From assembly GCF_056712565.1 (NCBI RefSeq), contig NZ_JBWXXM010000002.1: DNA of 64,000 nucleotides; one strand, given 5' to 3'. Positions 15,001 through 18,000 of the stretch are shown in pieces. The position numbers were made by a program. Origin of the DNA: a plasmid. The stretch's first letter is position 1. Each line of letters starts with the position of its first letter.

Positions 15001-18000
15001 TGGGCTGAGCAGCAGTATCGACAACGTCTGGGTAGTGGAAAAGTAATGCCAATGTTTACCCGTATCCAAAAAGATAATGGATGGGATCACCTAAATGATT
15101 TACGTGAAAAATTTAACGGTAAGGTGTTTAAAGTAAACGAACAGATTATCTCACGCTTTCAGATTAAAAATACACCTGCGCTTATAACTACTGACCAAGA
15201 TAAATTCCGGATCACCCTGTTTAGCGAGGCAGAAGTCCGTGGAATCGGAGCCCCAAATCTTTCAGAGGAAAAATAATATGAAACTCGGATTTATTATAGG
15301 CGCTCTCTTTGCAACATGGCTGACGCTAAATTATCCGGACCAGATGAGAAGTTATTTTACCAAAGCCGTCGACTATATCGAAAGTGTTGCAACATTTATT
15401 ACATCCAAGTGAGCATGATGGTGAAAAAATTCAAAAAGTTACTTTTAGAGTTCATTGTAGCAGTTATGCTTTCGCTTTCTATACCTGGTATGGCTATGGC
15501 AGCAGATGCTGGAGTCCCTGGGGCTATGTGTCAGTCAGCTGGAGTGTGGCAGGGCTTGATTAAGAATATCTGTTGGAGCTGCATTTTTCCCATGAGGATA
15601 ATGGGCATAGGGGCTGCTCCAGAAGGCGCTGCACCTTCACGTCCGGGTTGCTACTGCACAGATCAGAACGGCGTACCGGAAATAGGTTGGCAATTGAGCT
15701 TCTTTCAGCCGGTGAAGATTGTAGAAGTTGTAAAGAGCCCCTGGTGCAGCCCCTTTCTTGAAGGCACGATGCTTCAAAAATCGCAGTTTGATATTGGTAA
15801 AAGCAACACTAATCAGCCAATGACAGCAACTGAAGCCGGATTTTACGATGTTCATCTTTGGGAGTTCCCAATCATGACAATGCTCAAATTACTGATTATT
15901 GGCGAGTGCACTGCTGAACCCTATATAGATGCCAGCCTGACCTATATAAGCGAAGTGGACCCTATGTGGGAAAGTGATCTGCTTACACTCGTCCTGAATC
16001 CCGAGGCAGTAGTTTTTGCAAACCCAATTGCCTCAATGGTGTGCGCTGCTGACTGTGTAGCAGTAACAGCAGGAAAGGATAATCTCGCTGCATACTTTTG
16101 TGCCGGATGCGATGGCAACCTTTACCCATTAACCGGCCACATTTACGCAAATGATGACGCTGTAAGGACGAGTTCACTGATTACCCAGCGTCTTCTGACA
16201 AAACTACATCGCCAAGGCATGCTGATGCGAACGATGGGAGCAGACGCAATGTGTGAGAAAACGTGGGAATACTTTACACCACGTTCCCAGTATCGGCTTT
16301 CAATGCTTTTCCCTACTCCTGAGGCGAAGGGACCGGATTGCTGTCATCGTCTTGGTGATTCGGTACACGACTGGTCAACCCTTAAAGGTGGGCGCAAAAA
16401 AATAGGCAACGATAATTATGTCTATATGTTGTGGCGTTACAATGACTGTTGTGTTCGCTACGTTCCAGGCGTTTGATTTCTAAGGAGAAAATAAGTGAAA
16501 CTTAGAAAAACAATCACCTCAGCGATTATTGCATCAATGGTTGCCAATACTATGAGTTGGGCTTTTTATGTCACACTCATAAACATGGTAATGACACCAC
16601 GTGTTTACGCTGCTGACGCTATATTTGACCAGCTCGAAAATAATTTTAACCTTGCAAATCCTAACGCAAATCGCAATGCAACCACCAGTGCTCAGGACAT
16701 TGTGGAGAAATACAAGAACGCGGATTCAGGCGAGAATGTCAGTGGGAAGATCACCGAGAAATACGTGGGTAAAGCCGAATCCGCTAATCTTAATCTCGGG
16801 AAGTATGGGGCAGGGAACTCTAATGAAAGTGTCATGAAAAATGCCGCATCCGATGGAAAGTCTATTGGTAGCGCCGTACAACTGCCGAGTATGTCTGGAG
16901 GGACAATCAATTCAAACTACACCAAGGAAGGGGCAAAGCTGCTCTCTCGTGATGCTAATGGCAACATTGGTATAAGCAGTAATCCCAATACTACTCCTGG
17001 AACCAAAACAAATACGGGAGAGATTTTCAGCTCAGAGCAAAAGCACAGCGATATAAAGTTCAACGCCGCAGATCGTTATGGGGATGAGGATGGCTTTGTT
17101 AACGATATAAAGAATCGGAAAAGCCAGTTATTTGATGCTCAAAGTTATGATGGCGTTGCCTACCGCACCCTCGTAAATGCTAACAAGGACAACCCGGCAT
17201 CGTCTGTAAAGCCTAACGATCCCATGTTTACTGCGGGGAGAAATGAGATAACCAATGCTGTTGCTGGTACTGGAAACTGGCTTCAGAACTGTAATGTTGA
17301 GACCTCCAAAAAAACAGTAACCACACACTATCCTGATTACAAAGAGTTCTACTGTAACTCGCCTAAGCAAGATAACTTCAGCAGCTGCACGATAACTCGT
17401 GACTTCTCTGTTCCTGTATACATTTCAGGCGGAAACGGAGACATGTCGATGTGCGGCGATAATTGTGTGCGTATATGGTTTGGTCGCCGTGATGACAACT
17501 ACTGGAGTGACGGGGTATTTGATAACGAACTGACATTAAAATTCCATCCGGATGCAAAATTGGCCTCAGCAAAGATTGTTAACGCGGAGTGGGATGACCA
17601 CATGCGGGTAACACTTGATGGCACGCAGATTTTTGCTCACATAGATGGTGCATATCGAGAAAGTGACTATCCGGCTCCAAAGGGATCTTGGGAGTTAAAA
17701 AAATCGTGGAAACTCGACAAAGTATACGATGTAACTGAAAAGGTCAGAAAATCAGTTTATGAAGAACCTGATCGTGAAGTGACAATGGCATCCAGAGTCT
17801 GGGTTGGTGGGGGAGGTGAAGGGTACTTTGAGGTTGAGCTGACGTTTGAAAATATGAAGCTCGAAGATAAGCACGTCCAGGAACCAGCTGGTTGTTACGA
17901 TGCTGTACAAACACCAAATACATTCTGCCGTTTCGATCGGTTTAAAGATATGGATGTTGGCACGAAGCGGCTTCCGGAAAGCGTGCTTTCTATGGCAAAG

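What the first reader, a model, noticed from the sequence alone, without database searches (positions are those of the whole stretch)
15278..15412. Unannotated 44-codon hydrophobic ORF between the TrbC/TraW and TraU genes
An ATG one base after the trhW stop, with GAGG upstream, opens a 44-aa frame encoding a hydrophobic peptide that ends just before the trhU start. Small membrane peptides are easily missed T4SS components.
Basis: seen in the sequence. Interest (0 to 1): 0.3.

Follow-up and report, generated by a model that had tools for sequence, protein, structure and literature searches.

The report
Overlooked small gene in IncHI transfer operon
A 44-codon reading frame wedged between two conjugation genes of an IncHI2 resistance plasmid is a real, conserved gene for a tiny, probably membrane-bound protein of an unnamed family; most annotations skip it and the plasmid literature calls the stretch "intergenic".

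Summary
In this IncHI2 plasmid window, an ATG at 15278 sits one base after the trhW stop, behind a GAGGA. It opens a 44-codon frame ending at 15412, 2-8 nt before the trhU start.

It is not a chance ORF. The frame is intact at the same spot in eight diverged H-type transfer regions, including IncHI1/R27, with no indels. Substitutions concentrate at third codon positions (pN 0.16 against pS 0.55). A truly non-coding gap in the same operon has decayed to 52% identity with six gap runs.

The product has an N-terminal hydrophobic helix with a G4xxxG8xxxA12 stripe, an invariant Tyr-Pro kink and an amphipathic C-terminal helix. It belongs to a family with no Pfam or NCBIfam model. That family also has stand-alone chromosomal and prophage members in Enterobacterales.

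The gene is absent from IncHI3/HI5-type plasmids and from F, where trhW/traW and trhU/traU overlap (ATGA). It is therefore an accessory gene, not a core type IV secretion component.

trhU in the ORF-bearing lineages has a GTG/TTG start and a weak ribosome-binding site just after the small ORF's stop. This suggests a translational chain trhW -> small ORF -> trhU.

Function is untested. This is a modest, solid find.

The parts
13765..15276 (+). trhW (TrbC/TraW-type periplasmic pilus-assembly protein). Its stop TAA at 15274-15276 lies 1 nt before the small ORF's ATG.
   Evidence: Pfam TrbC_Ftype match, E = 2e-17. PGAP annotation of an identical plasmid.
15264..15269 (+). Shine-Dalgarno sequence AGAGGA for the small ORF, inside the 3' end of trhW.
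   Evidence: Read. Equivalent AGAGGAG, ACAGGAG, GGGAGGGG or AAGGAG sits 7-9 nt before the ATG in all 8 lineages. Duplex energy with the 16S rRNA 3' end is -6.0 kcal/mol here and -7.4 to -11.7 in the others; background mean is -2.5.
15278..15412 (+). Small ORF: 44 codons plus TGA. Product: MKLGFIIGALFATWLTLNYPDQMRSYFTKAVDYIESVATFITSK.
   Evidence: Conserved without gaps in IncHI1/R27, the pN330-1 type, two Photorhabdus elements, a Buttiauxella/E. coli type and two metagenomic lineages. pN 0.16 against pS 0.55.
15284..15334 (+). Codons 3-19: hydrophobic helix LGFIIGALFATWLTLNY with a small-residue stripe G4xxxG8xxxA12. This is the best-conserved part of the peptide.
   Evidence: The most hydrophobic 17-residue window (residues 1-17) has mean Kyte-Doolittle 1.66 and Wimley-White octanol sum -6.8 kcal/mol. 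AlphaFold2 predicts a helix at 3-18, pLDDT about 82-86. pN is 0.07-0.10 in codons 1-20. F5, G8, L15 and Y19 are invariant in the 15-member family alignment.
15332..15337 (+). Codons 19-20: Tyr-Pro, the family-invariant helix break.
   Evidence: Invariant columns Y19 and P20. The AlphaFold2 helix breaks at residue 19.
15338..15406 (+). Codons 21-43: amphipathic C-terminal helix, evolving faster than the N-terminal half.
   Evidence: AlphaFold2 helix 20-43. Hydrophobic moment 1.33 with mean hydrophobicity -0.20. pN 0.21-0.58.
15407..15413 (+). AAGTGAG: last codon, TGA stop and one more base. Conserved as AGTGAG in six of the eight lineages (all but L027 and L028). It doubles as the weak Shine-Dalgarno-like element for trhU.
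   Evidence: Junction sequences. Duplex energy upstream of the trhU start is only -2.7 to -5.3 kcal/mol.
15421..16476 (+). trhU (TraU family). GTG 15421 is the start position shared by most ORF-bearing lineages. ATG 15415 and 15418 exist only in IncHI2.
   Evidence: Pfam TraU match, E = 4e-82. PGAP start at 15421. Start codons in the eight ORF-bearing lineages are GTG or TTG, 2-11 nt after the small-ORF stop.

Best explanation
The frame at 15278-15412 is a genuine protein-coding gene inside the IncHI 'AN' transfer operon (htdA...trhP-trhW-[small ORF]-trhU-trhN).

Shown:
- It is conserved in frame, position and length (43-44 aa) in eight diverged H-type transfer regions, with purifying selection on the amino-acid sequence.
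- It belongs to a small-protein family with no Pfam or NCBIfam model, with the motif M-[KR]-[LI]-G-F-x2-G-x3-[AG]-x-W-L-[TS]-L-x-Y-P-x2-M-x3-F-x-K.
- That family also has stand-alone members in Enterobacterales chromosomes and a prophage-like region.
- The gene is absent from IncHI3/HI5-type plasmids and from F.

Inferred:
- The product is a small membrane-associated protein. Helix 1 (residues 3-18, G4xxxG8xxxA12 packing face, conserved N-terminal Lys/Arg) sits in the inner membrane. The Tyr-Pro kink and amphipathic helix 2 lie at or beyond the membrane surface.
- Like other very small membrane proteins, it most likely acts by packing its helix against a larger membrane protein or against itself.
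- Its fixed place between two periplasmic pilus-assembly genes suggests an accessory, non-core role in H-type mating-pair formation.
- It also forms a translational chain. Ribosomes finishing trhW restart 1-2 nt later on a good Shine-Dalgarno site. Ribosomes finishing the small ORF restart 2-11 nt later on trhU, which in these lineages has a GTG/TTG start and a weak Shine-Dalgarno site. In plasmids without the ORF, trhU instead has an ATG overlapping the trhW stop.

Rough probabilities: real translated gene 0.9; membrane-associated 0.6-0.7; feeds trhU translation 0.5; direct role in conjugation 0.35.
For: Identity of the window and position of the ORF:
- The window is 100% identical to many IncHI2 plasmids.
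- ORF, Shine-Dalgarno site and junctions were read directly.

Conservation across plasmids:
- tblastn finds the peptide at 80% or more coverage in 1401 plasmid records, about as many as carry the region (1396).
- The same ORF is present in R27 itself and in pLAO65, pN330-1, Photorhabdus heterorhabditis and P. tasmaniensis, a Buttiauxella/E. coli-type element and two metagenomic lineages.
- In every case it lies between the TrbC_Ftype gene and the TraU gene.

Coding signal:
- HI2 versus HI1 in frame 1: dN/dS 0.13-0.16. The other frames give values above 1.
- pN is 0.07-0.10 in codons 1-20 against pS 0.55-0.59.
- Variable columns by codon position are 25/22/40 over eight lineages, and only frame +1 is open in all of them.
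- The non-coding rsp-trhP gap compared between the same two plasmids shows 52% identity and 6 gap runs, against 77% and none for the ORF.
- Statistics: binomial P = 4e-4; chi-square P = 0.002-0.004.

Family membership:
- A profile search of 1.84 billion representative proteins found 18 hits.
- 37 clusters were found in the 5.8-billion-protein set. Every name a source gives is 'hypothetical protein', and all named organisms are Enterobacterales.
- An HMM built only from stand-alone members scores the T4SS-linked peptides at 42-65 bits, against at most 7.6 bits for 2000 shuffles.
- The Enterobacter chromosomal homologue, used as a tblastn query, hits only this gap in about 1400 IncHI plasmids.

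Structure:
- AlphaFold2 mean pLDDT 80, helix 3-18, kink, helix 20-43.

Transcription:
- No plus-strand promoter or terminator lies in the gap.
- In R27 the trhW-trhU 'intergenic region' showed no promoter activity, and RT-PCR showed co-transcription across it (PMC7366339).

Translational coupling:
- Junction sequences and Shine-Dalgarno energies.
Against: - There is no direct evidence of translation, such as ribosome profiling, proteomics or a tagged protein, for this gene or any homologue.
- The hydrophobic helix is short and only moderately hydrophobic (17 residues, mean Kyte-Doolittle 1.4-2.0, rich in Gly, Ala and Thr). Autonomous membrane insertion is not assured, and the topology is undetermined.
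- The gene is missing from IncHI3/HI5-type plasmids, K. grimontii and F. By gene numbering it is also missing from Rts1. H- and F-type systems therefore work without it.
- Stand-alone homologues in unrelated contexts argue that the family's activity need not concern conjugation.
- The C-terminal half is weakly constrained (pN up to 0.58 against Photorhabdus).
- pS inside the ORF (0.55-0.60) is lower than in the flanking genes (0.83-0.94). Some nucleotide-level constraint, from coupling or RNA processing, may add to the conservation.
- From memory only: the R27 Tra2 mutational study reported complementation of trhW and trhU mutants by the single genes. That paper (PMC145343) could not be read.
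Confidence: 0.6

Rival explanations
1. Passenger or 'moron' gene. The peptide is a small membrane protein whose activity has nothing to do with conjugation, for example a modulator of some host envelope process. It was inserted at the trhW-trhU junction in an ancestor of the IncHI1/HI2 clade. It persists because it benefits the plasmid or host in another way, and because trhU translation has become dependent on it.
For: - Homologues are stand-alone genes in variable, accessory-type positions: next to ldhA in Enterobacter hormaechei, upstream of feoABC, beside fimbrial operons, and between the Q antiterminator and the lysis genes of a Serratia-like prophage region.
- It is absent from sister H-type lineages and from F.
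- The Shine-Dalgarno site upstream of the small ORF sits where the trhU/traU site lies in ORF-less plasmids. This is consistent with an insertion into a formerly overlapping junction.
Against: - All eight T4SS-linked copies have lost the acidic C-terminal tail typical of stand-alone members. They keep a fixed 43-44 aa length and, in six of the eight, a C-terminal I-[TN]-[SN]-K ending. This suggests adaptation to the operon context.
- The gene has been retained over divergence at which synonymous sites in the neighbouring genes are saturated.
Confidence: 0.25
2. Coupling spacer only. The ORF exists to carry ribosomes from the trhW stop to the weak GTG start of trhU. The peptide itself is irrelevant and rapidly degraded.
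For: - The junctions are tight in all eight lineages: 1-2 nt from the trhW stop to the ATG, and 2-11 nt from the small-ORF stop to the trhU start.
- trhU has a non-ATG start and a weak Shine-Dalgarno site (-2.7 to -5.3 kcal/mol).
- ORF-less lineages have ATGA overlaps with stronger sites.
- pS in the ORF is lower than in the flanks.
Against: - A pure spacer would not constrain the amino-acid sequence. Here non-synonymous change is strongly suppressed, with pN 0.07-0.10 in the N-terminal half.
- The peptide is homologous to independently encoded proteins that have no downstream coupled gene.
Confidence: 0.1
3. Not a gene. The frame is a chance open frame in a conserved non-coding element such as an RNA processing site or regulatory RNA.
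For: - The R27 literature treats the stretch as intergenic and maps several 5' ends of trhU-trhN transcripts near it.
- Most annotation pipelines skip it.
Against: - Substitutions show three-base periodicity, and only one of six frames is open in all eight lineages.
- No Rfam match at E <= 1.
- Protein-level homologues exist elsewhere.
Confidence: 0.03

Closest known systems
Small inner-membrane accessory proteins of the F transfer operon (TrbI, TrbE, TraQ, TrbJ, TrbF, TrbA, ArtA)
   Same: They are short, hydrophobic-helix proteins interspersed among the periplasmic pilus-assembly genes (traW, traU, trbC, traN, traF) of an MPF_F-class type IV secretion system. They are co-transcribed with their neighbours and often overlap them. 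Several are non-essential.
   Different: - No sequence relationship: hhalign probability is at most 1.6% against each.
- F has no ORF between traW and traU, which overlap by ATGA.
- At 44 aa this peptide is much smaller than any of them (85-128 aa).
Very small single-helix membrane proteins of enterobacteria that bind larger membrane proteins (AcrZ, MgrB, MgtS, KdpF, CydX). This is an analogy from general knowledge.
   Same: Size (about 30-50 aa), one hydrophobic helix with a small-residue packing face, and routine omission by annotation pipelines.
   Different: - No homology was detected to any curated family (Pfam, NCBIfam).
- Those proteins have experimentally known partners; here the partner, topology and even expression are unknown.
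- This gene is embedded in and translationally chained within a conjugation operon.
Translationally coupled overlapping junctions of tra operons (ATGA-type traW/traU, trhW/trhU)
   Same: Termination of the upstream frame within a few nucleotides of the downstream start. The Shine-Dalgarno site lies in the 3' end of the upstream gene.
   Different: The single junction is replaced by two junctions with a 44-codon translated gene between them, and the inserted frame is itself under amino-acid selection.
YtxH-like proteins (Pfam PF12732). This is a resemblance recalled from memory in the N-terminal G-F-x2-G-x3-G...P pattern.
   Same: An N-terminal Gly-rich hydrophobic helix ending at a Pro, followed by an amphipathic helix.
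   Different: No Pfam match to YtxH for 11 family members (E <= 1 for the window peptide, E <= 10 for ten others). This is a lead only, not membership.

Membership tests
Unnamed small-protein family M-[KR]-[LI]-G-F..G....W-L-[TS]-L-x-Y-P (defined here) | Significant profile match over the N-terminal helix, Tyr-Pro and the start of helix 2 | tested here: met
   A profile of the T4SS-linked peptides finds stand-alone members at E = 1e-10 to 1e-4 in 1.84 billion proteins. A reciprocal HMM built from stand-alone members scores the window peptide at 62 bits (E = 4.5e-12 at that database size), against at most 7.6 bits for shuffles. tblastn with the Enterobacter homologue hits this gap.
Core H-type mating-pair-formation genes (trhA, L, E, K, B, V, C, P, W, U, N) | Present in all H-type (IncHI1-HI5) transfer regions | tested here: not met
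   Absent from pPMK1-NDM (IncFIB/HI1B replicons) and p187-1 (IncFIB/IncU replicons), the IncHI3/HI5-type Klebsiella plasmids, and from a K. grimontii contig. There trhW and trhU overlap by 4 nt.
Core H-type mating-pair-formation genes | Required for conjugative transfer or H-pilus production | not testable with these tools
   No mutant data were found. The R27 Tra2 mutagenesis paper is not held. Searches for the ORF's RefSeq accessions and for 'small ORF' with IncHI and trhU found no paper describing it.
F-plasmid small membrane Tra/Trb proteins (TrbI, TrbE, TraQ, TrbJ, TrbF, TrbA, ArtA) | Sequence or profile homology | tested here: not met
   hhalign of the family alignment against each protein: probability 0.1-1.6%.
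F-plasmid small membrane Tra/Trb proteins | Equivalent gene position in the F tra operon | tested here: not met
   F traW (76748-77380) and traU (77377-78369) overlap, with no intervening ORF.
Small membrane-spanning (single-helix) protein | A hydrophobic helix long and hydrophobic enough to span the bilayer | tested here: inconclusive
   17-residue window with Kyte-Doolittle mean 1.66 and Wimley-White octanol sum -6.8 kcal/mol. AlphaFold2 helix 3-18. The helix is short and rich in Gly, Ala and Thr. No dedicated topology predictor was available.
Small membrane-spanning (single-helix) protein | Membrane localisation and defined topology | not testable with these tools
   Needs fractionation and PhoA/LacZ or GFP fusions.
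Type I toxin-like small hydrophobic peptide | Own promoter and an antisense or overlapping regulatory RNA | tested here: not met
   No plus-strand promoter-like site in the gap. The two minus-strand consensus matches are no more than chance (2 found, 1.9 expected). The R27 gap fragment had no promoter activity. No Rfam hit.
Translational-coupling spacer or leader ORF | Stop codon within a few nt of a downstream start that has weak initiation signals | tested here: met
   A GTG/TTG start lies 2-11 nt after the stop. Shine-Dalgarno energy is -2.7 to -5.3 kcal/mol, against a background mean of -2.5.
Translational-coupling spacer or leader ORF | Peptide sequence itself unconstrained | tested here: not met
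   dN/dS 0.13-0.18. The N-terminal half has pN 0.07-0.10 against pS 0.55-0.59.
Any curated protein family (Pfam-A, NCBIfam, PHROGs, PADLOC) or solved structure | Match above the curated threshold | tested here: not met
   No significant match in any library. Best PDB profile hit has E = 1.6.

The most novel reading that the evidence does not exclude
The peptide is the first recognised T4SS-associated member of an undescribed Enterobacterales small-membrane-protein family. An ancestor of the IncHI1/HI2 clade recruited it as a working accessory subunit. Its glycine-zipper helix would dock onto a membrane component of the H-type apparatus. Its translation would set the amount of TrhU made. Losing it would then alter H-pilus assembly or transfer efficiency, possibly in a temperature-dependent way.
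Probability: 0.3. Interest if true: 0.55.

Novelty: new member of a known kind. Interest (0 to 1): 0.4.

Why it matters
IncHI1 and IncHI2 plasmids carry multidrug resistance in typhoid Salmonella, and mcr-1 and carbapenemase genes in E. coli, Salmonella and Enterobacter. About 1400 plasmid records in PLSDB hold this gene. Their transfer genes were catalogued 20 years ago and the list has been treated as complete.

Several consequences follow.
- **An uncatalogued conserved gene.** A conserved gene in the middle of the trhP-trhW-trhU-trhN block is missing from that catalogue.
- **Operon expression.** Work on the operon's expression has treated the stretch as intergenic (PMC7366339). The proposed translational chain offers one possible reason why trhU and trhN respond differently from trhP and trhW, and a reason to expect insertions here to be polar on trhU.
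- **A wider family.** The result defines a small-protein family that Pfam and NCBIfam lack. Its chromosomal members are common in Enterobacter, giving two experimental entry points for finding what such peptides do.

The practical weight is modest until a phenotype is shown.

Tried and rejected
Searches that found nothing useful:
- Pfam, NCBIfam, PHROGs, PADLOC and PDB sequence searches gave nothing significant.
- Rfam on the gap gave no match.
- The word-indexed protein search with the single peptide returned only 3 near-identical, mis-started or frameshifted calls, because gene callers rarely call this ORF.
- The peptide-pattern scan of 100,044 representative genomes found nothing. The patterns were too strict: they missed the Photorhabdus copy, which a TrhU-based scan later found.
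- blastn of the Enterobacter homologue against 5,426 E. coli genomes gave no match.
- Literature searches for the ORF (RefSeq accessions; 'small ORF' with IncHI and trhU) found no description of it.
- Lawley et al. 2003, the R27 Tra2 mutagenesis paper, is not held.

Hypotheses rejected:
- Upstream extension of trhU (the 386-aa frame starting at 15316). That frame is closed by a stop in IncHI1 and shows dN/dS above 1.
- A relic of the TrhU signal peptide or the TrhW C-terminus. There is no similarity, and the TrhW length difference between lineages lies at its N-terminus.
- pYSP8-1 as a divergent ORF variant. Its differences are scattered single-base indels typical of assembly errors.

Not attempted: a structure search on a 44-residue helix-kink-helix, and linker-fused co-folding with TrhU or TrhW. 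Neither could be interpreted with the outputs available.
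Full report
**What the window is**

The 3.4 kb around the finding is 100% identical to many IncHI2 plasmids of Salmonella, E. 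coli, Klebsiella and Enterobacter, such as pSTM6-275 and the R478 type. The local gene order is htdA, two small genes, rsp (a 1434-aa Ig-like protein), an S26 peptidase, trhW (TrbC_Ftype), trhU (TraU) and trhN. The R27 literature names this the 'AN operon' of transfer region Tra2 (PMC7366339).

**Checking the observation**

Every element described is present:
- trhW ends with TAA at 15274-15276.
- After one base, ATG opens at 15278, with AGAGGA at 15264-15269.
- The frame encodes MKLGFIIGALFATWLTLNYPDQMRSYFTKAVDYIESVATFITSK and stops at TGA 15410-15412.
- Possible trhU starts follow at ATG 15415, ATG 15418 and GTG 15421.

PGAP uses 15421. GTG 15421 corresponds to the start position shared by most other ORF-bearing lineages, whose starts are all GTG or TTG; the two ATGs exist only in IncHI2.

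**Is it more than chance?**

Conservation says yes.
- tblastn with the peptide finds it at 80% or more coverage in 1401 plasmid records. That is essentially every record carrying this version of the region (1396 by DNA).
- Identity falls into discrete classes: 99% or more (IncHI2), about 74% (IncHI1, including R27 itself) and about 76% (pN330-1 type).
- A TrhU-based scan of representative genomes and a profile search of 1.84 billion proteins added five further H-type lineages: Photorhabdus heterorhabditis, P. tasmaniensis, a Buttiauxella/E. coli-type element and two metagenomic lineages.
- In each, a 43-44-codon ORF begins 1-2 nt after the TrbC_Ftype gene and ends just before the TraU gene.

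Across these eight lineages only frame +1 is open. The other five frames contain stops in most of them. There are no indels in the first 42 codons. Variable columns by codon position are 25/22/40.

For HI2 versus HI1:
- The differences fall 5/6/18 by codon position.
- dN/dS is 0.13-0.18 in frame 1 and above 1 in the other two frames.
- The deficit of non-synonymous changes has binomial P = 4e-4, and the codon-position bias P = 0.002-0.004.

As a control, the truly non-coding rsp-peptidase gap between the same two plasmids is 52% identical with six gap runs. The ORF is 77% identical with none. Synonymous sites in the flanking genes are saturated (pS 0.83-0.94), so unconstrained sequence would not have stayed alignable.

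At the protein level the ORF evolves faster than its neighbours: pN 0.16, against 0.08-0.09 for the TrhW C-terminal third and 0.03 for TrhU. Constraint is concentrated in codons 1-20 (pN 0.07-0.10).

**Where it is absent**

- In the Klebsiella plasmids usually classed as IncHI3/HI5-type (pPMK1-NDM, p187-1) and a K. grimontii contig, trhW and trhU overlap by ATGA.
- F has the same arrangement for traW and traU.
- Rts1 numbers its traW and traU as adjacent ORFs 216 and 217.

TrhU identity to IncHI2 is 87-97% in the ORF-bearing lineages and 79% in the ORF-less ones. This fits a single gain in, or a single loss outside, one H-type subclade. The gene is therefore accessory, not a core T4SS part.

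**What the product looks like**

- AlphaFold2 on a 15-sequence family alignment gives mean pLDDT 80, with helix 3-18, a break at Tyr19-Pro20 and helix 20-43.
- Helix 1 is moderately hydrophobic. The most hydrophobic 17-residue window (residues 1-17) has mean Kyte-Doolittle 1.66 and a Wimley-White octanol sum of -6.8 kcal/mol.
- Helix 1 carries a small-residue stripe G4-G8-A12(-T16), a classic helix-packing face.
- Helix 2 is amphipathic.
- Invariant family positions are M1, F5, G8, L15, Y19 and P20. Position 2 is always Lys or Arg.
- Membrane association is likely but not proven, and topology is open. The conserved N-terminal positive charge and the acidic tails of homologues mildly favour N-in/C-out. 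This is inference.

**A wider family**

The profile search found proteins of 44-80 aa sharing the N-terminal 35 residues. A second search found 37 clusters. Every name a source gives is 'hypothetical protein', and all named organisms are Enterobacterales: Enterobacter, Klebsiella, Kluyvera, Serratia, Dryocola, Providencia and Photorhabdus.

The longer members are stand-alone genes with acidic, probably disordered tails. They lie:
- between an alpha/beta hydrolase gene and ldhA in the Enterobacter hormaechei chromosome, seen on more than 1000 contigs;
- upstream of feoABC in a Klebsiella/Scandinavium-like contig;
- beside fimbrial operons;
- between the Q antiterminator and the lysis genes of a Serratia-like prophage region.

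The homology is not a composition artefact.
- An HMM built only from stand-alone members scores the T4SS-linked peptides at 42-65 bits, against at most 7.6 bits for 2000 shuffles.
- The Enterobacter protein, used as a tblastn query against 72,556 plasmids, hits only this gap in about 1400 IncHI1/HI2 records.
- No Pfam, NCBIfam, PHROGs, PADLOC or PDB entry covers the family.
- It is unrelated to the small membrane proteins of the F tra operon (hhalign probability at most 1.6%).

**How it is expressed**

- The gap has no plus-strand promoter-like or terminator-like site.
- In R27 the cloned trhW-trhU 'intergenic region' had no promoter activity, and RT-PCR showed transcription running from trhW into trhU. 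The ORF is therefore transcribed as part of the operon.
- Its Shine-Dalgarno site is good: -6.0 kcal/mol here and -7.4 to -11.7 in the other lineages. It occupies the position where the trhU/traU site lies in ORF-less plasmids.
- In all eight ORF-bearing lineages trhU starts with GTG or TTG, 2-11 nt after the small ORF's stop. Its Shine-Dalgarno match is weak (-2.7 to -5.3; background mean -2.5) and is formed partly by the AGTGAG that contains the stop, conserved in six of the eight lineages.
- The simplest reading is a termination-reinitiation chain, trhW -> small ORF -> trhU. It replaces the single ATGA-coupled junction of the ORF-less systems. This step is inferred, not shown.

**Best explanation and rivals**

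I consider it about 90% likely that this is a real translated gene. It is about 60-70% likely that its product is membrane-associated, about 50% that it feeds trhU translation, and about 35% that the peptide itself acts in mating-pair formation.

- The main rival (about 25%) is that it is a passenger small membrane protein with a conjugation-independent activity, as its stand-alone relatives suggest. trhU would since have become translationally dependent on it.
- A pure coupling spacer (about 10%) is contradicted by amino-acid-level constraint and by the independent homologues.
- A non-coding element (about 3%) is contradicted by codon periodicity.

**Comparison with what is known, and novelty**

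Small membrane proteins scattered through tra operons, and small single-helix membrane regulators in enterobacteria, are known kinds. This peptide fits those kinds but belongs to no described family.

It is not wholly unknown to databases. A few records list it as 'hypothetical protein' (WP_000765857.1, WP_022652169.1, WP_262499873.1). It is missing from R27 and R478 RefSeq annotation and from 60 of 60 sampled E. coli RefSeq plasmids. In R27 gene numbering, trhW is R0007 and trhP is R0008. The ORF is also missing from the IncHI papers I could read, one of which treats the stretch as a 249-bp intergenic region.

I rate it a new member of a known kind, of moderate interest (0.4). The coding case is solid and the target is cheap to test experimentally, but no phenotype is known yet.

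Noticed in passing
window 15415-15423: trhU has three in-frame candidate starts in IncHI2 (ATG 15415, ATG 15418, GTG 15421). Only the GTG position is shared with most other H-type lineages; the ATGs are IncHI2-specific. Some GenBank submitters annotate a longer trhU that overlaps the small ORF (for example KM877269.1, hit H230).
   Followed up: partly
window 15269-15277: A run of five A's lies just before the trhW stop. One ENA assembly has a product (P0093, 95 aa) in which a 1-nt loss there fuses the trhW frame to the small ORF (...SEENNMKLGF...). P0001 and P0005 are similar frameshifted read-throughs into the trhU region. These are probably assembly errors, but the homopolymer is a potential slippage site.
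   Followed up: no
window 13266-13778: Name clash. PGAP calls this S26 signal-peptidase gene 'trhF', while the R27 literature calls the equivalent gene (R0008) trhP and uses trhF for a different, TraF-like gene of Tra1.
   Followed up: partly
L007 1173-2381 (pKp_Goe_021-1, NZ_CP018714.1): An insertion carrying a TnpB-family RNA-guided endonuclease gene sits exactly between trhW and trhU in this Klebsiella IncFIB/HI1B plasmid. It breaks the ATGA-coupled junction seen in its relatives. MOB-suite still types the plasmid as conjugative.
   Followed up: no
L005 (pYSP8-1, NZ_CP037911.1) 1453-1665: This plasmid's copy of the region differs from IncHI1 by scattered single-base insertions and deletions, and almost no genes are annotated there. 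It looks like uncorrected long-read assembly error rather than biology.
   Followed up: partly
L020 5001-5171 (Enterobacter hormaechei chromosome, CP191185.1): A 56-aa stand-alone homologue (MKLGFLAGAVLATWLSLTYPTQMRAVFEQLVTIVQQITQPSSESHSDMVTPEQSYP) lies between an alpha/beta-hydrolase gene and ldhA-ydbH. It is seen on more than 1000 contigs and named only 'hypothetical protein'. No simple sigma-70 promoter or terminator pattern was found around it, and it has no E. coli counterpart by blastn.
   Followed up: partly
L027 877-2499: One metagenomic H-type lineage has a 540-aa TrhW with a roughly 40-residue insertion just after the signal peptide. ORF-less lineages have a shorter (453 aa) TrhW that lacks about 50 N-terminal residues. 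These length differences are unrelated to the presence of the small ORF.
   Followed up: partly
window 15278-15412 versus flanking genes: Synonymous divergence inside the small ORF (pS 0.55-0.60, HI2 versus HI1) is clearly lower than in trhW and trhU (0.83-0.94). This may reflect the small sample (42 codons) or an added nucleotide-level constraint such as coupling, mRNA structure or the transcript 5' ends mapped near trhU in R27.
   Followed up: no
window 19712-20584 (minus strand): A 290-aa 'hypothetical protein' (annotated as a lipoprotein in R27) is encoded on the opposite strand between trhN and trhI. It interrupts the otherwise co-directional transfer genes.
   Followed up: no
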